NCBI GenBank assembly: GCA_000165345.1
Contig: CM000436.1
Coordinates: 896,001-960,000, forward strand
Direction of reading: 5' to 3'
DNA: 64,000 bases
Shown piece after piece: positions 1,955 through 17,372 of this stretch. The translations under genes and the position numbers were made by a program. The notes under the pieces are model-generated. The model ran no database searches and had not been told where the DNA came from. It saw nothing but the letters and a program-made list of their open reading frames with translations. The first letter of the stretch is position 1. Every line of letters begins with the position of its first letter.

Positions 1955-3523
1955 TCATTCTCTGACTTTATTCATTATTTCAAAGTAGTTTCTAGTCTTC
2001 TTTGAGAAAAAAACCTTCGTTAACTGGCTTCTAAATTTTTGTCTTAATGTACGATTATTGTTTTTTCCAAATGGTCCAATATCTTGTCCATGGGTGGCTT
2101 TTCTTCTAGTCTTTTTGTATTTTCTAGAATAATATATTTTTGAAAAACCTTCATTGGGCTTTTCCATTATAGAAGGTACTTTAAATGCATCGGTAACAGA
2201 TACAGCCCAAGAATTATCATACTCTGTGTAAAGTTTTCTTTCAGAAATATTTGGAATAAAATGAGGATAATGAGTGTGCAATACTCTTTGAGGATAAAGT
2301 GAATCCGTCCTTTCCAATTTAATGTAAGGTTTATCGTTATTTTCATAAATAAATCCAGATGAAATCACCTCTTGACAAAAGTATGTAAGTAATTCATACG
2401 ATTTTATATTTGTTTTTGAAAACGCAGCAATCTGCTGTACGCACCTTTTCTTATATCTCGATATTTTCATTGAAAGCCACATTGGTATCATAACCGAAAA
2501 AAATTTTGCAACAGAAATCTCAGATACGAATTGCAGTTTGGCAGTACTAGAAAGAGCATAATACCCCAAAGATGAAAGCATCGATCTAATTACAAGGAAA
2601 TTTCTTTCTGCAGAAATACTTGATAGAAACTTGTTATTTTGAATATTCGAAATGGTTGTTAATATTGCAAACCTTGCAAAAGCTTTAGGGTCTAAAAAAC
2701 TATTTAATGGCTTAATTAATTTGTATGATCTATCTATTCTTTCTTGAAGTTCAGTTCTTAACTTTGAAAAAGGCCCATTACTGAATGGCCTTGAAATGAT
2801 ACAAGCTTCAACTTTCTCACATATTTCATCATAATATAGAGATATTTGGTTATCTGCAACAATAGATACTGAATTCTTGCAGTTATAAATGGAAAATTTT
2901 TCATTCTTGTATCCCAATGACATTATTGATGCGCCTATAATATCTTGTAAACTATAGCTCATGAGCATACCTGTAAAGAATGGAGCCATGCCCATATGCA
3001 TACAGTGAATGATTTCTAAATACCAAATAGATGGAATCATACATATTTCTATCGCAAAGCTCATTAATCGCTGGTAGGGCTCAAATACAAGCTCGGGTAA
3101 TGTATACTTGAAATGTTTGACTCTTGGGTACTGAATATTCGAGTTGTAATCTGAATTACTCATATTTATTGAAATTCCTCTTCTAATAAAGCTTGAAACA
3201 GATTTTCTTTCTAATGGAATGTGCGTTGGAAAGTTGCCTGAGGGCTTTGAGGAACTAATTATATCCGGATTTTCGTCACAAACATCCCTATTTAAAGATA
3301 TTGTAGCTTCCTTAAAATTTGTGTAATCATTCACGAAAGAGATTCTAGAATCTAAAAGTAAATCTCCGGAAGAACTATCATGAGCAGAATTTACGCCCAA
3401 AATTAATTTTTGCCATCCATTGTCTGCCTCTATCCCAGGCTCTAATTTATAGCCGGTCAACTTGGATCCTTTGACCAAATTAATAGTTATAAGGGTTAAA
3501 ATAAAAATATTAAGGTAAAGCAT
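1955..3523 (-). CDS. Secreted WYLE-motif family protein, paralog 1 (522 aa), single exon.
   Basis: Genuine ATG start. The N-terminal signal peptide is MLYLNIFILTLITINLVKG. The conserved core is LPELVFEPYQRLMSFAIEICMIPSIWYLEIIHCMHMGMAPFF...SYSLQDIIGA, shared with the ORFs at 4268, 9790, 12384 and 15756. The C-terminal tail is K/R-rich. Confidence 0.8.
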   Translation of the reverse strand: MLYLNIFILTLITINLVKGSKLTGYKLEPGIEADNGWQKLILGVNSAHDSSSGDLLLDSRISFVNDYTNFKEATISLNRDVCDENPDIISSSKPSGNFPTHIPLERKSVSSFIRRGISINMSNSDYNSNIQYPRVKHFKYTLPELVFEPYQRLMSFAIEICMIPSIWYLEIIHCMHMGMAPFFTGMLMSYSLQDIIGASIMSLGYKNEKFSIYNCKNSVSIVADNQISLYYDEICEKVEACIISRPFSNGPFSKLRTELQERIDRSYKLIKPLNSFLDPKAFARFAILTTISNIQNNKFLSSISAERNFLVIRSMLSSLGYYALSSTAKLQFVSEISVAKFFSVMIPMWLSMKISRYKKRCVQQIAAFSKTNIKSYELLTYFCQEVISSGFIYENNDKPYIKLERTDSLYPQRVLHTHYPHFIPNISERKLYTEYDNSWAVSVTDAFKVPSIMEKPNEGFSKIYYSRKYKKTRRKATHGQDIGPFGKNNNRTLRQKFRSQLTKVFFSKKTRNYFEIMNKVRE

Positions 3524-4267: not shown

Positions 4268-5968
4268 CTACTTACTTCTTCTCTTTGTCAATTTATTTGT
4301 AAAACTCTTAAAGCTAATCCTCGTAACTTTTCCTGTTTTTATCTTACGTGAGGAAGCATCCATTGATTTAGGTCCGATCCCACTATTGTAGTGGTCTCTT
4401 CGGAATGTTCTTATTAGTGTTTTTGATTTAAATACCTTTTGTACTCGTCCCGGTCTTACAACTTCAGGTTTACTTACTTCAATTTGTGCATTTATCCAAG
4501 ATTCGTCTTCAGAATATTTCACGTCATTTGTCAAGTCTGGAACGAAAGAACTATATGAAGGATGCAGTACCCTCTGAGGCATAACAGCCATAGAATGTAA
4601 ATTAGGATCAGCATAGGATTCGATTGTAGCATCAACAATAAACCCTGCAGAAAAAATTTCCTTGCAAAATAACTCAAAAATAATTTCCTTGTCAGCTTTG
4701 GCTTCATGAGAAAATTTAGCTAGTTTTTTGACACAGCCAGGGATTGAAAGCAATGATACTTCAAAAAGCATATTCAGAATTGTCTTTGTGAAAAATAATA
4801 AGACCTTCTTTTCTGTATCAAATACCCAACTTTGATTAGTAGATATCGCATAGTATGCCAAACTTGCTAGTGCTATTCTTATTGGGAGGAAATTTCTTTC
4901 AGGATAAATTTTTATATCAACGTTTTTATCTTTTATAAGTGACATTGAAAGTAAGACTGCATACCTATAAAATTCCATCGGCTTTAAAAACCCCAGTTTT
5001 TCTGGAATGTGGCTATACGTATTTGCTATTCGAGTTTCGAATTCTCTCTTTTGTTTAGAAAAATATCGTTCAAAATGCTTTGATTCAAGGCATGCATGCA
5101 CAGCAATACAAATTTCCCTATAATGCGGAGAAATATAATCATCAACTACTAGTGATACTGCATAAAAACAGTTTTCCATTATAAAACGTTCGTCTTTATA
5201 GCCGACACTCATCAATGCTGCGCCAATAATATCTTTTAATGAATAGCTAAAAACCATTCCAAGAAACTTTGGTGCCATGCCAAGGTACATACAATGAATT
5301 AATTCTAAATACCAAGTTGAAGGAACCATGCATTGTTCAATAGCAAAAGTCATTACTCTTTGGTATGGCTCTGAAGGTAATAAAACCAAGCTTCTTCTGA
5401 AGTGCTTTACTCTAGGGAAGTTAGACAACTTAATAGTGTCGGATAAATTCAAATCAAAGGTTCTCTTAATGTAATCCGTAATTCGATTGGGCTTAGCCTC
5501 TGTTGGAAGGTGAACAGGAACAACTGATGTAGGGATAAAAAATTTATCAGAAAGAATTTCATGTTCATAATGGTCACTACAGAAAATACGTTGAGGGCTA
5601 TCACATCCAAAGTATTCATTCGACTTAGTAGACAATGCACTCTCCCAATTTTCTCCTGGTTTTACATTATCAATAATCAGAGTAATAAATCTATTCCAAG
5701 TCGATTTCCGGCCATTTAACAATTTATCATCGTCAATATAACTCTTATCTTTATCTATTTTTGGAGTAGAATCTGCGCTAATTGGTTTGGAGTCCGTTAC
5801 CTTTGAAGTTTTACCTTGTTCATCAATTTTAACCGCAAATTGTCGTGTTGAATCGGCTATTGAAGCGGACTCAATATAATTACAACAACTTATTGTGACA
5901 ATTACTAAAGGCAATATTAAGAATAATATATCTCTCATTTTTTTCTCTTTTCCAATATCTTGTGTCAT
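4268..5968 (-). CDS. Secreted WYLE-motif family protein, paralog 2 (about 566 aa; an alternative ATG at 5938 gives MRDILFLILPLVIV...).
   Basis: The track ORF begins at a TTG (5980). The first ATG is at 5968 (MTQDIG...). The hydrophobic signal peptide is LFLILPLVIVTISCC. The core is EPYQRVMTFAIEQCMVPSTWYLELIHCMYLGMAPKF..SYSLKDIIGA. The C-terminal tail is basic. Confidence 0.75.
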   Translation of the reverse strand: MTQDIGKEKKMRDILFLILPLVIVTISCCNYIESASIADSTRQFAVKIDEQGKTSKVTDSKPISADSTPKIDKDKSYIDDDKLLNGRKSTWNRFITLIIDNVKPGENWESALSTKSNEYFGCDSPQRIFCSDHYEHEILSDKFFIPTSVVPVHLPTEAKPNRITDYIKRTFDLNLSDTIKLSNFPRVKHFRRSLVLLPSEPYQRVMTFAIEQCMVPSTWYLELIHCMYLGMAPKFLGMVFSYSLKDIIGAALMSVGYKDERFIMENCFYAVSLVVDDYISPHYREICIAVHACLESKHFERYFSKQKREFETRIANTYSHIPEKLGFLKPMEFYRYAVLLSMSLIKDKNVDIKIYPERNFLPIRIALASLAYYAISTNQSWVFDTEKKVLLFFTKTILNMLFEVSLLSIPGCVKKLAKFSHEAKADKEIIFELFCKEIFSAGFIVDATIESYADPNLHSMAVMPQRVLHPSYSSFVPDLTNDVKYSEDESWINAQIEVSKPEVVRPGRVQKVFKSKTLIRTFRRDHYNSGIGPKSMDASSRKIKTGKVTRISFKSFTNKLTKRRSK

Positions 5969-7650
5969 AGTTAATATCAAGGGCGGGAATTAATTTAATT
6001 TGATAAAATTATTAAAAGTTTCGATAAAAACCTTTTTAAGCAAATAAATTGCATTGTTAGACATGGCCAATTATTAGAACTAATTTCTTTTACTTTTGTT
6101 AAAAGCCAACGTGATTCTTCCGGTAGGCTTCTTAAGACTTTCCCATGGGTATAAAATACTTCGAATATATTTTCAATTCAATAATGATTCATTTTTTAGT
6201 CTGTTTTAAAGTTATTTAAAACATTTTCCTTTTCGCTTTGTCTATTTCTCCCCTAGATTCTATGTTACTGGAAAGTTTACCAGTCAGTTTTATATATATT
6301 AACTCCACAGAGCTGAGTTCTAAAAATTATAATAGGAAAGTACAGAACTCTTGGTGGAATTGTTACTCTTTTAAAACCACCCAGTTGATTGTTAGCTTGG
6401 AAATTATCTATAAAACCAATGAAGAAATTCATTTGCAAAAAAAAACTTGTGCGCAAGAATGTTAAATTTTGCTCAACTTTATGGAACGGTAGAATTTAAA
6501 TGAGCAATTAATATCAAATAGATATAACTATTGCATAATGCTTTCAAAAAATAACTTCAGTATTTCAATAATTTGCAAGCATGTTTCTAGGTCATTAATC
6601 TACCAATATGGTATATTCCTAAAGAAGATAATATAATTCCAATTCTGAGGAATTTTTTGATACAAATATCGGAAATATTAATATTTAACTGGATACGGAG
6701 TGCACTAACAAGTGTCGTGCAAATTGAACTGGGCTGAAATCATCGTTCTTGTATTTTAACAGTGAATAATACCTTTTTATTATTCAAACTATTTCCGAAT
6801 GTGAATGTAGAAAATGTACTTTCTGAAAGTGACTTAAACTTTAAGTATGTTCCCATTGCTTTTTCGAATTAGAATTTGGTTTTATAAATTGTATTATTTA
6901 CAAAGAATGAAATAAAATGAAAACTTCGTATTGGAAAAACGCCATTCTTATATACACAGTGTATTGATTTCATCGACAAATAATATATCATATTTACCTA
7001 ATTAGAAAAGCTCATAATTCGTTTGTATTACCCTGCAGAAATACTGATATTTCCCAAATATTTATACTGAAAAGGCTAAATAAACGTCTTCTCCAACTTC
7101 AAAATTCTCATTTTTTCAGTTTATGAGATTATTGTATAATTATATTTTCTTTTGAAATATGTACTAAGTCCATTTAATAAGAAGAAGCTAAACAAATAGT
7201 ATTTGTTTTTACTCTGATATTTAATTAATCCCTCTAAGTCCTTATCTTAAAGCGTTAAACTCGATAAATATTTGATTATTTTTTTGTGTTAGACTTTAAG
7301 TTGAATTGCTGAAATTTGTGGCTTATTTCTATATTGAACGAGCTTGAATAGGCCAGACGTAAAATTGAAGAAAATAGTATTAATGCTTTTTTCAAACTCG
7401 TCGGCGCTATTTAAAAATTCGGAATAAAAATAGAAATAATAATCGAATAAATAAATGTATACCCCAAAATTTTAATAAAGTATATATAACTCCAAATAAT
7501 ATCTATAAATTTTAATAATAAATTTATCCAAGCTAGAATATTGTTTTAGTTATTTCTTACCAAAAAAAAAAAATAAATCATAAAGAAATCAAAAAAATAT
7601 GATAAAGCTTTAACATATTCAGCTGTTAGCTATGATTTTATTTAACCTTA

Positions 7651-8900
7651 TTATATAAAGTTATGATTAGATATAACTATTTTTTTGTTATCATTTACTA
7701 TTGACCTTTTTTTCAAACTTCTAAAACATAACTTTGTTCTCTTTTTTTTGGAAAGATTTTTAATTAATTCGACTGTATCAGAACTGTCTACTGAGATCTG
7801 AGTTTGATTAAAGCTATTTGTTATCGTGGAATTCGCACTATTAAATGCATCATCTTTGTCATATTTTTGACCAGATTCTAAGTAATCTTTAGAAACGTTT
7901 TTGAAATTCATCCATGAATGATTGTATGTCAAAAGTGGAAGTTCTTAGGAAACTTCAGAAATTGTAGATACATGTGAACTTAACAAAATTCTTTTTGAAT
8001 GGATTGATTCTATTAATATTGAATTAATTTCCCCATTATTTTGAAATGACTCATAAATAAAACCAACAAAAAATTTCATTATCTCCCTTGAACATTGCCG
8101 AATAACTTCATCTATCTTCTCAAATAAAAGATTTGAGATTAGTATTGTAAAGAAACTTACTAAAACACTCTCAGAAAAGAAACTCATTTCAATTTTAACA
8201 AGCTCATAATATCCAACTGCTGCTGCCATAACTCTAATAAGAAGTTTCTTTCAGGAAAATTTTTGTTTAATGTCATCTTTTTAAAAAAAAATTGAATATA
8301 AAGTTGAACACCTTGCAAATACTTTAAAGTTGAGAGCACCTTCAAGAGGAGGAATAGCATGATATACTTTTTGAATCCTACGATTGAATTCGCTTTTAAA
8401 CCTGATAAAATTAATTTCATAGAATGATCTGGATTTGAGACAAAACCCTGCTTCTCCATAAATTTCAATAAAGTGAACCAAAATTTTATCATCTAGAAAA
8501 AGAGGTAAATAATTGACAATTTTCAAGGGAAAATTGTTTATTTTTATATTCCATCGAGAAAATTGCAGAATTAGCCAAATCTTGTAGACTGTAATTCATA
8601 AGCATACCATTAAAATAAGGGTCATTGCAAAATACATAAAATTAACCAGTTCTATGTGCCAAATTGAGGGAAGCATGCAAACCTCGATAGCAAATCCCAC
8701 AATTCTTTGATAGGGTTCATGAGTTAATTTAGTTAAACCTCTTTAATAATATTTTATTCTGGGGAAGAAATAATTTTGAATTTAGTCATATGCTATTAGG
8801 CTCTCTGAGTAAATGTTTGCTAAATAATGCCAAGCTTTCTGTTTCAATTGTGATGTGGCAAACCTTTTCAAAATCTTTATGGCTCTCCTTCATGACTTTT
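7651..8900 (-). pseudogene. Decayed WYLE-family paralog with frameshifts and stop codons; the 5' boundary is approximate and may extend to about 9300.
   Basis: Four overlapping minus-strand ORF fragments lie in different frames (7651-7932, 7945-8229, 8184-8492, 8281-8526). Placed in paralog order they align to the C-terminal two thirds of the family: EFNRRIQKVYHAIPPLEGALNFKVFARCSTL; ERNFLLELWQQ; IMKFFVGFIYESFQNNGE; HSWMNFKNVSKDYLE plus a basic tail. Upstream at 8530-8720 the reverse strand still reads ...YQRIVGFAIEVCMLPSIWHIELVNFMYF... but is interrupted by stops. Confidence 0.6.
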
Positions 8901-9789
8901 TTTTGCTGAAAAGATCCCATTAAAAAAATCGAAATGATTTCCTGATTCTAAATATGAAGAAAGAACATCCTTTTTGTAATATTCGCCTCAAGATAATTTG
9001 TTGTAAGAATGTTTAGTCAGTGTTGACTATTACATGTTACTTCTGATTCTTTGGAAACTAATCCAATTAACACCAATAATATTCGTCACTTTTGAAATTA
9101 TCAATATCAATGTTATGGTATTTACTGTTAATTTAGGTCATTTTGAATCATTCATTTTCAAATAGAGCATTGGCGTTAGAAATATTGTCAAGTTTATCAA
9201 GAATATATATAATGAGTATTGTTATAAGCCACACTTTCATAAAATTGTTAGCTTTAAATAAATTACGCCATTAAAATTTCAATTCTTAAAAATCTGTAAT
9301 CTCTAATAAAAATAAAATTTGGGCGTCATGGTTTTTTTTGTTCATCCTATTTTGAGAATAAAGATACCACTCAATATAAATAAGCAAACGATTTAATTAT
9401 GCAGTATCAATTATAGATAGAATTCAGTTTAATAGAAAAAGTGATTATTATAACTCATGCTATCCGCCTTTTGACTGAATCGAAGTCTTAATATTCAGAA
9501 TTGATTAACGCAGTACCGAGTAAAAATAATTATAACATAAGCAGCTTGAGGTATTAAGTTAGAATCATCTAACAAAGAATTCCCCAATTAAACTTAATAA
9601 CACATAGATATTTTAACTTAGCTCAAATAGAGTTTGCGCATAACTTGTTTTGACTCTAATTAAATTCAATAACTTATTATTGAAAAATACATAGGCTAAA
9701 CTGTTCTGTATGAAACTGAAATAATCAGAAACTCAAGAAATAAAATGTAAAATATTGGTCACAGTACAATTCATATTATATGCCAGCAA

Positions 9790-11301
9790 TTACTGATCAG
9801 CTGAACCTAAATGTGAAGTGATTAATCCAGAAATCCTCGTCTTGCGATTAGTAAATATTTTTGTAATTTTCGTAAAGCCGCTTTTCTTTTTGGTATTTGT
9901 TTCGGTAGATCTCGTTTTACTGATACTATTTTTACTTGCTGTTTTGAAATATTTAGTTGTCTTGGGCCTTTTCTTTTTACCAGTTTCGACTCCAATATAT
10001 TCAATGGTTCCTACTGAACTAAAACTTAGCCATGATAAATCTTCTTGAGAGCTTGCTCCATTAATTAAGGAAGGAATTACAGAAGCATAAGCCGGATCTA
10101 AAACTCTAGACGGCAGAATTGCTTTTTTAAATGCTTCAAGAGAATCCCCTTCTTTTTTAACCGTTTCATCAATAAACCCAAAAGATAAAAACTCCTTGCA
10201 GTAAAGCCCAACGATTTCTTGAAAATCTTTGCTTTTTGAACCTAATATCGCAGGAAAGCTAATTAAGCACATCTTCATATAATACTTAAATTGAGAAAAA
10301 AGCATGCTATTTATAAATTTTGTGATTTTGGACATCCTTTCGGAAATAGTACTCTCTTCAACTGGAATGAACTTATTAACTAAGTAAGTCATACTTAATA
10401 CCATAGCTCTAATAATTAAAAAATTTTTTTCTGTAGCGGGATCTGCTAATGAAAAATTTATTGTTTTAGATGATAGTGATAATAACAAAGAGTGTCTTGC
10501 ATAATTTTTATGTTGTTCCACCTTTTCTTGGCCTTCAATATTAGAATAAGCATTATCAATCCTTTGCTGAAATTCTTCTTTTAAACGAAGATATGGGTCG
10601 GAAGAAAATTGATTAGATAACAGGCATTGACTCATACTTTCACAAATCTCTTGAAAGTTTGCATTAATTTGTTCGTCTGTTACAGATGAAACAGATCTAT
10701 AACAATTTTCAATTGTAAAGCTTTCATCTAGGTAACCCATTGTTTTAATAGCTGAACCGACAACATCTTGAAGGCTATAACTCATTAGCATGCCTGAAAA
10801 AAATGGCGCCATCCCAAAATGCATACAATGTATTAATTCCAAATACCAAATAGATGGAATCATACAGATTTCAATAGCAAAAGTCATTATTCGTTGGTAT
10901 GGCTCAAATGGCAATTTTGGAAGATTCTTATTAAAATGTTTACGCCTTGGAAAGTGTGTTTGAGACATATTAATTCGTGATCTAAAAAGACTATCTTCAG
11001 TATAAAACAAAAAATGTGCCGGACTCTTACTCTCTCGCGGAACATGAGTAATAAACTCTGAAGAAGGTGGAGTTTGATCTAAGTATTGACTCGATGAATA
11101 AAAAACTCTGTCACAAGATACTGACTGTTGAGGGTTTTCAAACGAGAAGTAATTTTCTGCACTTGAAGAAACAAAGTCATCCAATGACCCATTCAAAGAA
11201 TGTTGAGAAGACTCTATTACTAGCCGTAATAAACCATTTTCAAATGATTTAACATTTCTTATAAACATAAAGAGTAAAAAAATTAGTTGTCGGCAACGCA
11301 T
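9790..11301 (-). CDS. Secreted WYLE-motif family protein, paralog 3 (503 aa), single exon.
   Basis: ATG at 11301..11299. Signal peptide MRCRQLIFLLFMFIRNVKS. The core is LPFEPYQRIMTFAIEICMIPSIWYLELIHCMHFGMAPFFSGMLMSYSLQDVVGSA. The C-terminal tail is basic K/T-rich. Confidence 0.8.
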   Translation of the reverse strand: MRCRQLIFLLFMFIRNVKSFENGLLRLVIESSQHSLNGSLDDFVSSSAENYFSFENPQQSVSCDRVFYSSSQYLDQTPPSSEFITHVPRESKSPAHFLFYTEDSLFRSRINMSQTHFPRRKHFNKNLPKLPFEPYQRIMTFAIEICMIPSIWYLELIHCMHFGMAPFFSGMLMSYSLQDVVGSAIKTMGYLDESFTIENCYRSVSSVTDEQINANFQEICESMSQCLLSNQFSSDPYLRLKEEFQQRIDNAYSNIEGQEKVEQHKNYARHSLLLSLSSKTINFSLADPATEKNFLIIRAMVLSMTYLVNKFIPVEESTISERMSKITKFINSMLFSQFKYYMKMCLISFPAILGSKSKDFQEIVGLYCKEFLSFGFIDETVKKEGDSLEAFKKAILPSRVLDPAYASVIPSLINGASSQEDLSWLSFSSVGTIEYIGVETGKKKRPKTTKYFKTASKNSISKTRSTETNTKKKSGFTKITKIFTNRKTRISGLITSHLGSADQ

Positions 11302-12274
11302 ATTTATGATTTTGAAATATTTTAGGCGTTTGACCTGGATTTCAGAATTTTTTTGCGCGCGTATTAATACCGTTTTCTTTTTTGAAAATCTAACAGATCT
11401 GTTTTCCTGATATTAAAATTGCCAGAAAAAAAAATCTGATTTTCTACTAAAAGCAATTTTGTTTAAACTATTTAATAATAAATTATTATTTTTGGTTACC
11501 CTATTTTAGAATTTGATTATTATTTTTAATCTATACCCAAATTGGATACAACCAAATAATAAAATTATAAATCTTAATTTATAATGTAATATTTGTTCGT
11601 TATTTTGTTCTGAAATCCTCTTTGAAAATTTTTTTCAAAATAATTGCCAAACACAAAAAATGAATTCCTTGGGAATATGATAGCAATTATTTGTTATTAT
11701 GGTATAGTGATATAGCTATTTCTCAACAAAAATCTTGTTTATACAGATTATTGCACGGGAAAACTTGTAGAGGTTTATTTCTTATGCTGTTCTATGCAAG
11801 CTTACCTAAAACATTAATTATTATTAAAGCCAAATCTATTAATATCACTTTCTGTACAATTATCAGTTTTATGTATAATTTTTGTTAATTTCTGGAACTT
11901 TGCAACTTCATATATGGAACTAATTTAATTTTTTTTTTCCAGTTACTGAAATAAATAAAAACTTTGACAAATACGTTTCAAAGCAAATATAGAAGTTTTA
12001 GTAAATACGGAGTTATGGTTCAAAATTTTACTTCGTGCAATGAAGAATGAGTTTATAATTTTTAGTTAAAAGGAATTTATCTAAAATTAATCTGACTATA
12101 CGTTTAAAAAAAAAGATTAGATATATTGAAAATTTCAAACTAAAATATTTCAACCCGTATAATATTCTTTATTTAAAACTTGTGTAATAATTACAGATAC
12201 AGTTTGCTTTAGTAGAGTTTCCAAAATTTGCTACAAGTATCAGCGAAACATATTATTTCCATTGTGCATGCATA

Positions 12275-12284
12275 GGGCGCCAAT
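12275..12284. promoter_or_regulatory. GGGCGCCAAT box about 100 bp upstream of WYLE paralog 4.
   Basis: A GGCGCC core in AT-rich upstream DNA. Similar boxes sit upstream of paralog 1 (3622..3630, TTTTGGCGC on the minus strand), paralog 3 (11352..11361, TTTGCGCGCG) and paralog 5 (17686..17718, CCGCCAAT and CGGCGGGC). Confidence 0.35.
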
Positions 12285-12383
12285 TTAGGAATTGATTTAT
12301 TTATCAATTATTGCAATGAAATTAATAAGAGATGAAATTATGTCATCATTGCTAACTTTTAAACTGATCCTATACTTACTACT

Positions 12384-14352
12384 ATGATGAGCAGTATTAT
12401 TCTAAATATCTTAAAAATACTCATTATATTTGTATTGATTAATATTATTGGATCAGACTCAGGTGCAGTATCGAACCCATCCAAACAACAAAATAAATTT
12501 ACTAAATTAAATCAAGTATTTAAAAGAAAAAATAAACAATATTATGCTATTTCAAAAGATGGCTCTCTCATATTTCCTGCACTAAAGGCAATTTCTTCCA
12601 AGAATATTCCGCTTTTGAAAAATGTTAATAGCTTTAATAATGAATATGACGAAGGTAAGTTATTTATTAGTAGTTTTAGCTGATTTCTTACATTTCATAG
12701 ATATAATTAATAGAAGCCATGTATATATTATTAAAAATGGAGAAGTTCCTGGGTGGGATGGAATGAAAATACCAATACATTATTCCAGTGAGCATTCAAA
12801 ACTAAGATTGAAACCACCTGAAAAAAGCAGGTCAATTTCTATTTTCCCACCTGTTGTAGCCGAGAGGTAAGTAAAAATATTAATAAATAAATTCAAAATT
12901 GTTTATGTTTTTAGATTTATGTTATTTGCTTTAGAAGAATGCCTTCTTCCATCAAAGTTTTTTATTCAGGTTGCTTTTTGTACATTTGATGCAATTTATC
13001 CATTTTTAGAAGGTGTTCCTTCTGGAGAAGTAATGCAAGATATTGTAGGGGCAGCTATGTATTCGGTAAATAAAATAGGAGACGATTTTTCCTTTGATAC
13101 CAAATATTGCCGTAAAGCAATAGCAATGATTCCAGATTCACGTATAAACTTAGAAGTTGATTCAAAATGCAATGATATCTCTCTATGTATGCACCAAGAC
13201 CATTTTCCTCAATTATCACGTTCCCTAAGTGTATTTAATTTGGAACAATTAATAGAGAAATCGTTTATACTTCATGGTCTTGAGTATCAGCTCAGAGTGA
13301 GAAAACTTATTCAATCAATTCTTTGGAAAATAATTAAATCTGCCCATAAATCAAATATAAAAAGAGAGCATATGAATCCCAATAGACTTTTTTCAATAAT
13401 CAGAGCATATGTACTTACATTGTATATTAGACATTCGAGCCTAATTATTCCAGGATGGTATTTAAATAAATTTCCATCGGCAAAAAATTCATTATCATTT
13501 GTATATGTGAAAAATGAAGATTATACTGAACAATCTGCTTATATAAACTACTGTGCAAGAAAATTAAAATGGTGGTTAGATGCATTCCAACCAATTGTAT
13601 CACCGATTTTCCCGAATATGGATACCAAGGATGAGGTTTCAAGATCCGCATGCTTTCAAGCAGGAAGAGCAGGATTTGTAAGTAACGAAGAGTTTGACTT
13701 CTCAAATATGATCGAGGAAGGTACTGAAAGTGTTGATTTGCTGAACCTTCAACTTCCCATTATATTGAAAAAGTCAGAAGAGGAAATAAAGTATATAAGA
13801 AATAATAACTTAAGAAAAGCTCAAGAAAATAGAAAGTGGACTAGTCACTATGAGTCGTATCCATATTCATTAAATGGAAGAATGTTCCAGGATATTATTC
13901 ATGAAAAAGATAAACTTAACTTACAAAATTTAGCTCAAGAAGCCGAATTAAGCCAAGATAAGGACACTTTATTAGATGAAGTTAAAGATCTATTAGGAAG
14001 AAAAAAAAATGGTGATGAGCCATCTATTAAATATGAAAATATTTTTGATACAAATGGCAGAGAAAGTGACAAAAAAACGTCTTTCTCCCCAGTTGAATTT
14101 ATAGCTCAATTAAAGCAAGATAATATTGACTTAGAATCTCACGATGCAAACACGAGCAATATTTCCTATAAACCCAGAAGCATAATTAGAGATCAATTAA
14201 TTCAACCGCAAAGCACTCATTCTTTGAAACAGGGTATTTATGGAAATGCCATGGATGACACAAATTCTGGATTTGAGGAGGATGAAATCGAGGAATTTGA
14301 AGATGAAGATGAGTTTGAGAGTGAAAACGATAACAATTATTCTACAAAGTAA
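12384..14352 (+). CDS. Divergent WYLE-family paralog 4 with three exons: join(12384..12654,12701..12866,12915..14352), about 624 aa.
   Basis: ATG at 12384 with signal peptide MMSSIILNILKILIIFVLINIIG. Donor GTAAGT at 12655 and acceptor catag at 12700 give a 46-nt intron in phase 1. Donor GTAAGT at 12867 and acceptor ttttag at 12914 give a 48-nt intron in phase 2. The splices join three track ORFs into one frame. Exon 3 carries the family core in divergent form (FMLFALEECLLPSKFFIQ...GEVMQDIVGAAMYS). The C-terminus is acidic (EEDEIEEFEDEDEFESEND), unlike the basic tails of its paralogs. Confidence 0.6.
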
Positions 14353-14447: not shown

Positions 14448-15524
14448 TTATGCATTTCCATTTCTCTGCAATTGCCCCATTCTACTGAATAAATTATTTC
14501 CAATTATACTTCCACTAATACCTAGTGTATTTCCTAAAGTACCTTTTATTCCGTTATTACAGTTGCAATTTCCATTGCAGCTAAGGTGACTTCCGTTTAT
14601 ATTTCCATTATTTAGAGGAAACCCATTATAAACACCATTACTTTGTTGAAAGCCTCCGTAGAAACCGTAGTCTTCGAATCCTCTTATTTGTTGCCCATTC
14701 ATAGGTTGTATTCTCGATCCAAACGGAATAGGGGAAATAAATGGAAGTACAACTGCCTGTACTAGAGCAAAACAACAACTACAAACGGCCAATGATATCT
14801 CTATGCATGCCATCCATTTCATAGTAGATCTCAATTTATCTAGAGGCGATCTATATTTTTTTCTTTTTTCTCTGAGTTCTTTCTCTCTCTTTTTAAGCAT
14901 TTTTTTTCTTTTCTTTCTTTTTTTCTTTTCTTTTTTTGAAAGTTTGCTATCGTCCATATCATCGTCAAGATATCTTCTTTTTAGTTTATTTCGTCTGTAG
15001 TTGATTTCGTTGTGATTAAGTTCATGAAAGCTCGCTAATGAACGGAAGTTTGGCTGGCTTTGAATGCCAAAGTTAACTCTTGAATTAGTATTCTCGAGTT
15101 CCAACTTATCTGTAATTTTTGATATGTTTTTAATATTGTATAGATCTTTTAGGTATATTTCGTCAGTTGAATTTCTATCTTGATTTATTATAAATGAAAG
15201 CTCATCAAATAGCTTGTTATTTTTATCTCCAAGAATGTAACATGTATGTGTTTTATTTACAAATTTAAGTGTATTTATTTGGTAATCACACTTTTCGTGT
15301 TCGTATGCCGAAGTTTCATTAAAATAAATATAATATAAGTTCATTTGCTCATCTTTCAAAATCTTTTCGTTTGTCAGGTTCATCTGAGCCAATATATCCT
15401 CAAATATACTATCTCTTATGGACTCTACATGCTTGACTTGGGCATGATCGATCGAGCTTGAATCTACAAAATTAAAAAAAATCAAAAAAGTAAGTATAGG
15501 AACTAATATTAAATTTGATTTCAT
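14448..15524 (-). CDS. Hypothetical secreted/membrane protein with a lysine-rich stretch and a C-terminal-proximal TM segment (358 aa from the ATG at 15524; an upstream ATG at 15593 gives 381 aa).
   Basis: From 15524 the N-terminus MKSNLILVPILTFLIFFNFV looks like a signal peptide. There is an extreme basic run KKEKKKRKKRKKMLKKREKELREKRKK, then a hydrophobic segment WMACIEISLAVCSCCFALVQAVVLPFI. The C-terminus is N/G-rich and low-complexity, with many NxS/T sequons. Confidence 0.5.
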   Translation of the reverse strand: MKSNLILVPILTFLIFFNFVDSSSIDHAQVKHVESIRDSIFEDILAQMNLTNEKILKDEQMNLYYIYFNETSAYEHEKCDYQINTLKFVNKTHTCYILGDKNNKLFDELSFIINQDRNSTDEIYLKDLYNIKNISKITDKLELENTNSRVNFGIQSQPNFRSLASFHELNHNEINYRRNKLKRRYLDDDMDDSKLSKKEKKKRKKRKKMLKKREKELREKRKKYRSPLDKLRSTMKWMACIEISLAVCSCCFALVQAVVLPFISPIPFGSRIQPMNGQQIRGFEDYGFYGGFQQSNGVYNGFPLNNGNINGSHLSCNGNCNCNNGIKGTLGNTLGISGSIIGNNLFSRMGQLQRNGNA

Positions 15525-15755
15525 TCTAACAGTGATGAAAGCTAGTTTGGCAAATTGCTCTCTACATACAATAGTTTTTCCTGATATTTTCATCTTAAAA
15601 AAATTTGTATGTCAAGTAATTCAAATAAATGCATAATATTTAACGGAACAGTCTGATTATTGCCTTGGGATCATAGAAAAAATTATATTTATTATGAGTT
15701 TTAATAATCTATAATTTAATAAGATTATAGAGTGTTTATGGATTATCTATTTTTC

Positions 15756-17372
15756 TCAGTCAATATCTATAGTTGAAAGAATATCTTCGAGCTGTTTTTT
15801 CAATCCAGAATTTGACGTCGAATTTGAACTAGCATAGCTTTCTATCTCTGTACTGTTGCTTTCATTTGATGTTTTGTTTGCAAAATTTTTTGGAACATCT
15901 AAACGGGTAACAACTGAACGGTTATTCAATATTGCTCCTTTATCACTAAACTGAACTTGCACTTTTTTCTTAGGAGATTGATTTTCTAAGGCTTTTTTTT
16001 GTTTAATATTTTGTTTAAAAGCCCCTCTACTCTTCGAACTTAAGTCAGCACTTTTTACTTGACTCGATGTTTTATCTTTTATTTTTTTGGTCGGCTGTTC
16101 CTTGACAATTTCTCTTGAATGAGCAAGGTGAGGGTATGCTAAATATTCAAGCTCGTTTATTGAAATATTCTTTGGAATTTCAATTTCACTATTTATAAAT
16201 CCCATAGAAACTAATTCAGTGCATGCGTGCTGTATTATTACATTTGAGAATGGGCAAAAGCCTGTCTTATCAAAATAAGATAAATAATCCACTGAATTGT
16301 TTGATAAGTGAGCATTAATAATCAGGCGTGCGCATTTTGCAATCATTTTAATAGGAGTTGGCTGAAGTAGGCTTTTATCTCCAATTTTCATATAGGCCTT
16401 TGGAGAAATCTCAAATGCATCAATATCTTTAAGTCCCTGTCTAATTAAGTATTCAGTTAGAATCATTATAAAGTTGAAGTATCGTATCACATAGAATAGT
16501 TTATCAGGAAATTTTATCTTTTTTCCATCATTTTTACTAGCGGCAGGCCCATAACCTTTTTCCCTTCTTGCCATTAATATTCCAACAATGATTTTCTGGG
16601 CATAAGATCTGGGTTGCTGGCCTCTAAAGAACGGTGGCTTATCTTTGTAGACGTCAGTAATTTCTTTTTCTAATTTCCTAACTTGATTTTTATTATTTCT
16701 CAGAAATTCTTTAGAAGTAAGGCATGTCAGCATCATACTGCAGACTTCCGAATTTTTTTTGTTTATTGCTATGTCACTAAAAAGAGATATTGAGGCCTTA
16801 CATTTAGCTAAACTAAAACTTTCACTTGGAAGATCCATAGATGCTAGTGATGCACCAATAATATCTTGAAGAGTATAGCTTGTAAGAATACCCGTTGTAA
16901 AGTGTGTAACTCCTCTATGCATACAGTATATGAGCTCGAGATACCACAAAGAAGGTATTTTGCAGATACCTATTGCATACGAGAATAACCTTTCGCTTGC
17001 CTCTAAAGGAAGTCTTTGGGAACTTTGAGAAATTACTGGCATTCTTCTAATTTTTACAGAATTATCGATTGGAATAATTGGAACATGAAGCCTAATTGGA
17101 AGTTTTGAATATATGTTCTCAGAAAGAGGGCTTGTTCCATCAGCATTAATATCATTAGGAAAATTGGGTTCAATCCCTTTAATTACAACTGTTCTTAAGA
17201 ACGGGTCCATTTTTCTGACTCTTATTCTATATTGGGAGTTGTATATATGATTGTTTTTTTGATTATCTACCCCTACCAGTATATTGTCAGGATTGTAACT
17301 AGTTTTAGAGGACTTTTTTGAAAGAATTGGAATAAATGTACTAATAAATATTATAATAAGCGTTAGTCTCAT
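15756..17372 (-). CDS. Secreted WYLE-motif family protein, divergent paralog 5 (about 538 aa), single exon.
   Basis: The track start at 17387 is a GTG. The first ATG at 17372 gives signal peptide MRLTLIIIFISTFIPILS. The core is LEASERLFSYAIGICKIPSLWYLELIYCMHRGVTHFTTGILTSYTLQDIIGASLA. The C-terminal part is K/S-rich. Confidence 0.7.
   Translation of the reverse strand: MRLTLIIIFISTFIPILSKKSSKTSYNPDNILVGVDNQKNNHIYNSQYRIRVRKMDPFLRTVVIKGIEPNFPNDINADGTSPLSENIYSKLPIRLHVPIIPIDNSVKIRRMPVISQSSQRLPLEASERLFSYAIGICKIPSLWYLELIYCMHRGVTHFTTGILTSYTLQDIIGASLASMDLPSESFSLAKCKASISLFSDIAINKKNSEVCSMMLTCLTSKEFLRNNKNQVRKLEKEITDVYKDKPPFFRGQQPRSYAQKIIVGILMARREKGYGPAASKNDGKKIKFPDKLFYVIRYFNFIMILTEYLIRQGLKDIDAFEISPKAYMKIGDKSLLQPTPIKMIAKCARLIINAHLSNNSVDYLSYFDKTGFCPFSNVIIQHACTELVSMGFINSEIEIPKNISINELEYLAYPHLAHSREIVKEQPTKKIKDKTSSQVKSADLSSKSRGAFKQNIKQKKALENQSPKKKVQVQFSDKGAILNNRSVVTRLDVPKNFANKTSNESNSTEIESYASSNSTSNSGLKKQLEDILSTIDID

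What the first reader, a model, noticed from the sequence alone, without database searches (positions are those of the whole stretch)
12384..14352. One paralog carries two 46-48-nt introns and an acidic tail while its siblings are intronless with basic tails
Paralog 4 can only be assembled by splicing three track ORFs with canonical GTAAGT...YAG introns, and the phases close exactly. It is also the most divergent copy and swaps the K/R-rich tail for a D/E-rich one. This looks like neo-functionalisation, which is my inference. The sibling copies may be intron-less retro-copies or products of gene conversion with cDNA, or this copy may have gained introns. Either possibility is unusual in a lineage with few introns.
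Basis: seen in the sequence. Interest (0 to 1): 0.5.

Follow-up and report, generated by a model that had tools for sequence, protein, structure and literature searches.

The report
Known three-exon Cryptosporidium WYLE-like gene

Summary
The window is Cryptosporidium parvum chromosome 8, at the WYLE secreted-protein cluster. The proposed model (exons 12384-12654, 12701-12866, 12915-14352; introns of 46 and 48 nt) is exactly right. Its 624-aa product is identical to GenBank QOY40122.1 (CPATCC_004205, 'WYLE gene family') and three other C. parvum entries. Only the 2004 Iowa II model (477 aa) lacked exons 1-2. By neighbour order and matching divergence statistics the gene is cgd8_3570.

Both introns occupy the same codon positions and phases (1 and 2) in eight species, including gastric C. 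serpentis. Intron lengths and sequences drift while exon lengths stay nearly fixed.

The gene and its orthologues form a 100%-bootstrap clade. This clade lacks the WYLE motif (it has PSKFFIQVAFC) and keeps an acidic tail. Nearly all other family members have basic tails, except window sibling 15756-17372.

This is an ancient subfamily split, not recent neo-functionalisation. The siblings are tandem duplicates of an already intronless ancestor.

Intron loss versus gain cannot be polarised, because an exhaustive profile search found no homologue outside Cryptosporidium. About 11% of C. parvum genes carry introns, so a three-exon gene is ordinary.

The biochemical function is unknown and the core fold matches no solved structure. 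Two decayed WYLE pseudogenes were found nearby.

The parts
12384..12654 (+). Exon 1 (271 nt; codons 1-90 plus 1 nt). Encodes a signal-peptide-like N-terminus, MMSSIILNILKILIIFVLINIIGS, and a poorly conserved, low-confidence region.
   Evidence: The exact product is in GenBank. The AF2 model has a helix at residues 2-23 followed by disorder.
12655..12700 (+). Intron 1: 46 nt, phase 1, GTAAGT...CATAG, 24% GC.
   Evidence: Same position and phase in seven annotated species, length 45-112 nt. Also present in C. ryanae.
12701..12866 (+). Exon 2 (166 nt). Encodes the conserved block DI(I/L)NR..YIIKNGEVPGWDGMKIPIH..LRLKPPE..FPPVVAE.
   Evidence: Residues D91, H117 and P130 are nearly invariant across the whole family.
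12867..12914 (+). Intron 2: 48 nt, phase 2, GTAAGT...TTTAG, 12% GC. It splits the codon of the family-invariant Arg146, which aligns with the R of EPYQR in the siblings.
   Evidence: Length is 46-198 nt in other species. Identity to C. serpentis is 22%, against 58-64% for the exons.
12915..14352 (+). Exon 3 (1438 nt including the stop). This equals the old 477-aa Iowa II model XP_627250.1, which started at the internal ATG at 12919.
12856..13686 (+). Conserved helical core domain shared with WYLE proteins (residues 143-403, spanning intron 2). It carries PSKFFIQVAFC where the siblings have PS(I)WYLELIHC, plus conserved cysteines.
   Evidence: hhalign of independent profiles gives 98.7% probability and E = 1.6e-16 over 237 columns. 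pLDDT is 80-96.
14170..14349 (+). Acidic disordered tail (last 60 aa; 17 D/E against 5 K/R, net -12).
   Evidence: Acidic in 10 of 11 orthologues examined. pLDDT below 50.
11302..12383 (.). Head-to-head intergenic region, 1082 bp, shared with sibling cgd8_3560. The intron-bearing gene is the only family member on the + strand.
   Evidence: The arrangement is conserved in every orthologous locus that extends far enough upstream (L001, L003, L004, L006, L007).
9790..11301 (-). Sibling cgd8_3560, the 'WYLE4' of Dumaine et al. 2021. Intronless, 503 aa, basic tail (+14).
   Evidence: The published guide maps to 9809-9828 and the repair template encodes its C-terminus.
1955..3523 (-). Sibling WYLE gene. 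Intronless, 522 aa, basic tail (+15).
   Evidence: (P0017 is 100% identical)
4268..5938 (-). Sibling WYLE gene. Intronless, 556 aa counted from Met, basic tail (+17).
15756..17372 (-). Divergent sibling, probably cgd8_3590. It keeps the WYLE motif, is intronless and has 538 aa. Its tail is NOT basic (net -2).
7681..9067 (-). Decayed WYLE pseudogene 1. It retains PSIWHIEL, with at least 6 in-frame stops and a frameshift. Probably the region once annotated as cgd8_3550.
6079..7230 (-). Decayed WYLE pseudogene 2. Fragments lie in all three minus-strand frames with many stops. It is related to the clade containing ELE39_000106.

Best explanation
Region 12384-14352 is the C. parvum gene cgd8_3570 (CPATCC_004205), a three-exon gene for a secreted protein.

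Shown here:
- Two short spliceosomal introns of 46 and 48 nt are removed to give a 624-aa product.
- Exon 1 supplies a hydrophobic, signal-peptide-like N-terminus that the old exon-3-only model lacked.
- Residues 143-403 form a helical, cysteine-containing core that is homologous to the WYLE family core.
- The C-terminal ~220 residues have low model confidence (pLDDT mostly below 50, which I read as disorder) and end in a D/E-rich tail.
- The gene belongs to an ancient sister lineage of the WYLE-motif genes, with one orthologue per species across the genus.
- That lineage always shows both introns at the same codon and phase, no WYLE motif, an acidic tail, and a head-to-head position next to a basic-tailed WYLE gene.

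Inferred:
- The family already had three lineages in the genus ancestor: this one, a cgd8_3590-like one, and core WYLE.
- The core lineage was already intronless and later expanded by tandem duplication in intestinal species. That explains the intronless siblings without any retro-copying.
- My preferred direction is a single loss of both neighbouring introns on the stem of the motif-bearing genes, because Cryptosporidium evolution is dominated by intron loss. Gain on the other stem branch is not excluded (roughly 60:40).
- The protein probably enters the ER through its signal peptide, forms disulfides, and is delivered to the parasite or parasitophorous-vacuole interface, as shown by tagging for sibling cgd8_3560.
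- Its oppositely charged disordered tail probably gives it different electrostatic partners.

The biochemical activity is unknown.
For: - Gene model: in-frame splice; exact identity to QOY40122.1, KAL5367099.1, WKS79618.1 and WRK34120.1. That annotation states its introns are 100% supported by RNA-seq (PMC8744675).
- Intron position and phase are conserved in C. hominis, C. meleagridis, C. ubiquitum, C. canis, C. felis and C. serpentis and in C. ryanae.
- Introns diverge faster than exons, and intron lengths are not constrained to multiples of 3.
- Gene ID: the dN, dS and identity values of cgd8_3560, 3570 and 3580 in Isaza et al. match my values for three consecutive genes. The cgd8_3560 guide maps to the neighbouring gene.
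- Homology to WYLE: BLASTP E of about 1e-13; hhalign 98.7%, E = 1.6e-16.
- Clade structure: NJ tree and bootstrap, with the intron-bearing clade at 100% and the core-versus-rest split at 100%.
- Tail charges across 55 proteins.
- Synteny and orientation.
- Purifying selection: dN/dS 0.25-0.62.
- Sibling localisation 'parasite and/or parasitophorous vacuole, not in host cell' (PMC8687662).
- Family restricted to Cryptosporidium.
Against: - I examined no transcript reads. RNA support rests on a general statement in the reannotation paper.
- The signal peptide is judged from sequence and a modelled helix, not from a dedicated predictor.
- The root of the family tree is a midpoint root with no outgroup, so 'sister lineage' and the direction of intron change are assumptions.
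- The cgd8_3590-like group is weakly supported as a clade (28% bootstrap).
- The gastric orthologue tail is only mildly acidic (C. serpentis -2 over 60 aa, -8 over 30 aa).
- The localisation of cgd8_3570 itself has not been reported in any paper I could read.
- The core fold has no solved relative, so there is no handle on function.
Confidence: 0.9

Rival explanations
1. Both introns were gained on the stem of the cgd8_3570 lineage, before the Cryptosporidium crown group. Under this reading the ancestral WYLE gene was intronless.
For: Intron presence maps to one branch of the unrooted tree. A change on either side of that branch is equally parsimonious in branch count. No outgroup exists. Both donors are the identical strong consensus GTAAGT.
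Against: It needs two separate insertions, against one event removing two introns 166 nt apart. Cryptosporidium genome evolution is described as dominated by intron loss (PMC8744675). The introns were already present in the common ancestor of gastric and intestinal species, so nothing marks them as young.
Confidence: 0.3
2. The intronless siblings are individual retro-copies, or were each converted by cDNA.
For: None of them has an intron, even at the unambiguous homologous site inside the EPYQR block.
Against: They lie head-to-tail on one strand, 0.7-3.8 kb apart, in conserved synteny, which is the signature of tandem duplication. The tree shows intestinal-species expansion from a core-WYLE lineage that has no called intron in the one gastric locus examined, C. 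serpentis L003. I did not look for poly-A remnants, and no copy lies outside the cluster in this window. From my own knowledge, C. parvum is reported to lack retroelements.
Confidence: 0.04
3. Recent neo-functionalisation of one C. parvum paralog: motif loss, tail swap and a change in intron state in this lineage only.
For: Within this single window it is the most divergent copy.
Against: Orthologues with the same motif replacement, acidic tail and introns exist in at least 10 other species. dN/dS is below 1 and similar to a sibling.
Confidence: 0.02
4. The three ORFs are not one gene. Under this reading, exons 1-2 are a separate small gene or non-coding, as in the 2004 annotation.
For: The old Iowa II, C. 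tyzzeri, C. hominis UdeA01, chipmunk-genotype and C. ryanae models contain exon 3 only.
Against: The exon-3-only protein lacks a signal peptide and starts inside the conserved core. Homology to the siblings runs across junction 2. Exon 1 and 2 lengths and sequences are conserved in eight species while the introns drift. Four current C. parvum annotations join the exons.
Confidence: 0.02

Closest known systems
C. parvum cgd8_3570 / CPATCC_004205 (GenBank QOY40122.1, 'putative Secreted Protein (WYLE gene family)')
   Same: The protein is identical over all 624 residues.
   Different: Nothing differs. It is the same gene. Only the 2004 model XP_627250.1 (477 aa, exon 3 only) differs.
Cryptosporidium WYLE secreted-protein family, e.g. 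cgd8_3560 ('WYLE4') (PMC7371110, PMC8687662)
   Same: They share the chromosome-8 cluster, an N-terminal signal-peptide-like sequence, a homologous helical core with conserved cysteines (hhalign E = 1.6e-16), a low-confidence (probably disordered) C-terminal half, and restriction to the genus.
   Different: The intron-bearing gene has no WYLE motif (KFFIQ in its place), two introns where the others have none, an acidic rather than basic tail, and the opposite strand. It is present as one orthologue per species rather than as an expanding set.
Other Cryptosporidium-specific secreted multigene families (MEDLE, SKSR, FLGN, NFDQ)
   Same: They are clustered, fast-evolving, signal-peptide-bearing proteins of unknown biochemistry, discussed in the literature as secreted pathogenesis determinants (PMC7371110).
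   Different: No sequence relationship was detected. Those families are mostly subtelomeric and lost in several species. The WYLE cluster, and this gene in particular, is retained genus-wide.

Membership tests
WYLE secreted-protein family (Cryptosporidium) | [quoted passage not shown] | tested here: not met
   The aligned position reads PSKFFIQVAFC in C. parvum and K/Q-F-F/Y-I/L/V-Q/R in all 9 orthologues whose sequence covers the site. Of the 37 non-orthologue family members in the alignment, 34 have WYLE and 3 a one-residue variant (WYIE or WFIE).
WYLE secreted-protein family (Cryptosporidium) | Sequence homology of the core domain to bona fide WYLE proteins | tested here: met
   BLASTP E = 1e-13 to 1e-14 against four window siblings. 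Independent profile-profile comparison gives 98.7% probability and E = 1.6e-16 over 237 columns.
WYLE secreted-protein family (Cryptosporidium) | Secreted: an N-terminal signal peptide | tested here: inconclusive
   There is a hydrophobic N-terminus, MMSSIILNILKILIIFVLINIIGS, modelled as a helix at residues 2-23. No signal-peptide predictor was available. Secretion of this protein has not been tested experimentally in any paper I could read.
WYLE secreted-protein family (Cryptosporidium) | Location in the chromosome 8 WYLE cluster | tested here: met
   The gene lies between cgd8_3560 and cgd8_3590-type WYLE genes in C. parvum. Conserved synteny is seen in seven other species.
WYLE secreted-protein family (Cryptosporidium) | Named as a family member by curators | tested here: met
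   GenBank names include 'putative Secreted Protein (WYLE gene family)' for C. parvum and 'Secreted Protein (WYLE family)' for C. hominis and C. felis. A name is not a test. My filing: a homologous, motif-less sister subfamily ('WYLE-like'), not a motif-defined WYLE protein.
Spliceosomal (GT-AG) introns | GT...AG boundaries, frame restored only on removal, and position and phase conserved among orthologues while the sequence drifts | tested here: met
Spliceosomal (GT-AG) introns | Removal from the mature mRNA | not testable with these tools
   Support is indirect only. The IOWA-ATCC annotation, which contains this model, states that its introns are 100% supported by RNA-seq (PMC8744675).

The most novel reading that the evidence does not exclude
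The single acidic-tailed member (cgd8_3570) may be a dedicated electrostatic partner of the basic-tailed WYLE proteins. It would act as a neutralising escort or packaging factor in the secretory pathway, or as a co-assembling component at the host-parasite interface. Three observations prompt the idea: it occurs as one copy per species across the genus; its tail charge (-12 to -21) is opposite to the siblings' (+10 to +17); and its head-to-head position with a basic-tailed WYLE gene across about 0.7-1.1 kb of shared upstream DNA is conserved, which could allow co-regulation. None of this is tested. Opposite charges and divergent orientation can arise without any interaction.
Probability: 0.08. 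Interest if true: 0.45.

Novelty: already known. Interest (0 to 1): 0.15.

Why it matters
It matters little beyond annotation hygiene. The three-exon model is already the current annotation, though truncated exon-3-only models persist for C. parvum Iowa II, C. tyzzeri, C. hominis UdeA01, the chipmunk genotype and C. ryanae. Anyone using those would miss the signal peptide. Two points may be of modest use to Cryptosporidium biologists. First, the WYLE family consists of three ancient lineages, one of which is motif-less, intron-bearing and acidic-tailed in every species. Second, the experimentally tagged 'WYLE4' is the neighbouring gene cgd8_3560, not this one. The opposite-charge tails suggest a cheap hypothesis, interaction or distinct targeting, that epitope tagging of cgd8_3570 could test.

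Tried and rejected
- Pfam scan of the paralogs and neighbouring genes: no family.
- PDB sequence profile search: best E = 0.016 to sand-fly salivary proteins, not significant.
- The AFDB50 fold library was unavailable.
- Exhaustive profile search for an outgroup to polarise intron gain versus loss: 25 representatives. All 20 whose source I checked are Cryptosporidium. I did not look up the other five (P0034, P0031, P0057, P0058, P0059).
- Literature search for localisation or expression of cgd8_3570 or CPATCC_004205: nothing. The hyperLOPIT paper (Guerin et al. 2023) has no PMC ID in the reference list I checked and I did not try to open it by DOI or PubMed ID.
- I first suspected that this gene was the tagged 'WYLE4'. 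I rejected that after mapping the published guide and repair template to 9790-11301.
- GTAAGT frequency as evidence for splicing: rejected as weak, since the motif is common in this AT-rich DNA.

Full report
**What the window is.** The window has about 30% GC. The 477-aa ORF at 12919-14352 is 100% identical to a Cryptosporidium parvum Iowa II protein, XP_627250.1. The surrounding contigs are chromosome-sized at about 1.33-1.38 Mb. Five intact paralogous ORFs lie at 1955-3523(-), 4268-5938(-), 9790-11301(-), 12384-14352(+, spliced) and 15756-17372(-). The four minus-strand copies carry the block EPYQR-M-FAIE-C-IPS-WYLE-IHCM. This is the WYLE family of secreted proteins, described as six genes in C. 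parvum, five of them clustered on chromosome 8 (PMC7371110).

**The observation.**
- Exons 12384-12654, 12701-12866 and 12915-14352 join into a 1875-nt open frame.
- Both introns, 12655-12700 (46 nt) and 12867-12914 (48 nt), run GTAAGT...TAG.
- Read-through of intron 1 stops at codon 100. Read-through of intron 2 meets a TAA starting at the second base of the intron.
- The hexamer GTAAGT is common here, 38 observed against 25.7 +/- 5.2 expected, so the splice signals alone prove little.

What makes the model secure:
- The 624-aa product is identical, residue for residue, to four GenBank C. parvum proteins. One is QOY40122.1 (CPATCC_004205), named 'putative Secreted Protein (WYLE gene family)'. 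The paper behind that annotation states that its introns are 100% supported by RNA-seq (PMC8744675).
- Mapping the annotated orthologues back onto their DNA gives the same two introns, in phases 1 and 2, in C. hominis, C. meleagridis, C. ubiquitum, C. canis, C. felis and the gastric C. serpentis. Exon 1 is 271-274 nt and exon 2 is 160-166 nt, while intron lengths range from 45 to 198 nt.
- C. ryanae, whose database model is truncated, also has both upstream exons and both introns at these positions.
- Against C. serpentis the introns are 37% and 22% identical, while the exons are 58-64% identical.
- Homology to the siblings runs across junction 2. Intron 2 splits the codon of Arg146, an invariant column of the whole-family alignment, which aligns with the R of EPYQR.

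**Which gene it is.** Isaza et al. (PMC4637869, supplementary table) list three consecutive genes:
- cgd8_3560: identity 0.944, dS 0.0565, dN 0.0248.
- cgd8_3570: identity 0.95, dS 0.0344, dN 0.0231.
- cgd8_3580: identity 0.982, dS 0.0416, dN 0.0081.

My own C. parvum-C. hominis estimates for the three consecutive genes at 9790-11301, 12384-14352 and 14448-15593 are, as dN/dS pairs, 0.0237/0.0574, 0.0209/0.0335 and 0.0087/0.0468. The CRISPR guide and repair template published for cgd8_3560 ('WYLE4') map to 9809-9828 and to the C-terminus of the 9790-11301 ORF. The intron-bearing gene is therefore cgd8_3570. The tagged WYLE4, which stayed with the parasite and/or parasitophorous vacuole and was not exported (PMC8687662), is its neighbour.

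**The tails.** Over the last 60 residues the intron-bearing protein has net charge -12. Its orthologues range from -12 to -21, with C. serpentis at -2 (and -8 over the last 30). Other family members are +10 to +17, with two exceptions: the window copy at 15756-17372 (-2) and one C. ryanae gene (+3). The acidic-versus-basic contrast is real and conserved. However, 'siblings with basic tails' holds for three of the four intact siblings in the window.

**Family history.**
- An NJ tree of 55 family members puts cgd8_3570 and its orthologues in one clade with 100% bootstrap support. The clade includes C. muris CMU_006070 and C. andersoni cand_004630.
- The split between core WYLE genes and everything else also has 100% support.
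- A cgd8_3590-like group is weakly supported at 28%.
- Each of the three groups contains gastric and intestinal species. The split therefore predates the genus crown, which agrees with the four family genes reported for C. muris and C. andersoni.
- The core group then expanded in intestinal species as a same-strand tandem array.
- Gene calls for core members in the fetched loci equal three times the protein length plus a stop, so they are intronless, also in C. serpentis and C. ryanae.
- dN/dS for cgd8_3570 is 0.62, 0.35 and 0.25 against C. hominis, C. meleagridis and C. ubiquitum. That resembles cgd8_3560 at 0.41 and 0.27.

This is an old, stably maintained subfamily and not a recently neo-functionalised copy. 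The siblings inherited their lack of introns, so no retro-copying of individual genes is needed.

**Gain or loss.** Intron presence maps to a single branch of the unrooted tree, and an outgroup is needed to orient it. Two word-indexed searches and one exhaustive profile search of 1.84 billion representatives returned only 25 representatives. All 20 whose source I checked are Cryptosporidium, so I found no outgroup and the direction stays undecided. I lean towards one loss of both neighbouring introns on the stem of the motif-bearing genes. Intron loss dominates Cryptosporidium genome evolution (PMC8744675), and one event can remove two introns 166 nt apart, whereas gain needs two insertions. 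This is inference, at roughly 60:40.

**How unusual it is.** It is not very unusual. The RNA-seq-based reannotation found introns in 10.8% of C. parvum genes, 688 introns of mean length 99 bp and 22% GC, and a mean of 2.6 exons in intron-bearing genes (PMC4637869). The two introns here have 24% and 12% GC, against 31% for the CDS.

**What the protein might do.**
- An AlphaFold2 model of the C. hominis orthologue (95% identical), built on a 31-sequence family alignment, has a confident helical core at about residues 140-400 with pLDDT 80-96.
- The model has an N-terminal helix at residues 2-23 that is consistent with a signal peptide. Residues 25-113 and 405-625 are modelled with low confidence.
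- Independent profiles of the two groups align over residues 143-403 with 98.7% probability and E = 1.6e-16.
- The most likely mechanism is entry into the secretory pathway, disulfide-stabilised folding of the core, and release at the parasite-host interface as for cgd8_3560. The tail charge would then determine different partners. This is inference.

**Family membership.** Homology, cluster position and curators' names all place the gene with the WYLE family, but it lacks the motif that gives the family its name. I therefore file it as a motif-less sister subfamily of WYLE and not as a motif-defined WYLE protein.

**Verdict.** Novelty: already known. Interest: low.

Noticed in passing
It keeps 'EPYQRIVGFAIEVCMLPSIWHIEL' but has at least 6 in-frame stops and a frameshift. 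Its best match is 44.7% over 407 aa to a Logan-assembly WYLE protein (P0035), in the clade with C. ryanae FG386_002107. It is probably what was annotated as cgd8_3550 (C. parvum-C. hominis identity 0.76, dN/dS 1.38 in Isaza et al.).
   Followed up: partly
window 6079-7230 (-): A second, more eroded WYLE remnant. Fragments lie in all three minus-strand frames with many stops. It is related to the clade containing chipmunk-genotype ELE39_000106, which has no intact C. parvum member.
   Followed up: partly
window 11302-12383, plus loci L001, L003, L004, L006, L007: cgd8_3570 is the only family member on the + strand. It sits head-to-head with basic-tailed cgd8_3560 across about 1.1 kb. This divergent arrangement is conserved in every orthologous locus that extends far enough upstream (L001, L003, L004, L006, L007), which raises the possibility of a shared bidirectional promoter.
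   Followed up: no
window 9790-11301 (-): In Dumaine et al. 2021 (eLife) the WYLE4-HA line is listed once as 'cgd8_3570 modified' and elsewhere as cgd8_3560. The published guide (9809-9828) and repair template map to this ORF, so the tagged gene is cgd8_3560 and not the intron-bearing gene.
   Followed up: yes
database models: XP_627250.1, TRY50157.1, CUV07909.1, P0006, P0009 (L007 about 5295-6000): Exon-3-only or otherwise truncated models of this gene persist for C. parvum Iowa II, C. tyzzeri, C. hominis UdeA01, the chipmunk genotype I and C. ryanae. In C. ryanae the missing exons 1-2 and both introns (donors GTGAGT and GTTAGT) are present upstream of the annotated start.
   Followed up: partly
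L006 3272-3323 (C. meleagridis intron 1): The C. meleagridis model uses an acceptor 6 nt downstream of the conserved one (tandem CATAG|ACATAG). Both choices are in frame, so this is either a NAGNAG-like alternative acceptor or an annotation choice.
   Followed up: no
window 15756-17372 (-): The cgd8_3590-type sibling keeps the WYLE motif, but its tail is serine/asparagine-rich and slightly acidic rather than basic. It groups loosely with C. muris CMU_006050 as a third old lineage.
   Followed up: partly
window 14448-15593 (-): An unrelated 381-aa gene (probably cgd8_3580) is embedded in the WYLE cluster in all species. It has a signal-peptide-like start at the internal Met, a KKRKKRKK-type basic stretch, a hydrophobic segment and a Gly/Asn-rich C-terminus. 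It has no Pfam match and a dN/dS of 0.19.
   Followed up: no
window 13678-13683 (+): A third GTAAGT lies inside exon 3, within the conserved 'AGFVSNEEF' coding block. It is evidently not used as a donor, which shows that the hexamer alone is not diagnostic here.
   Followed up: yes
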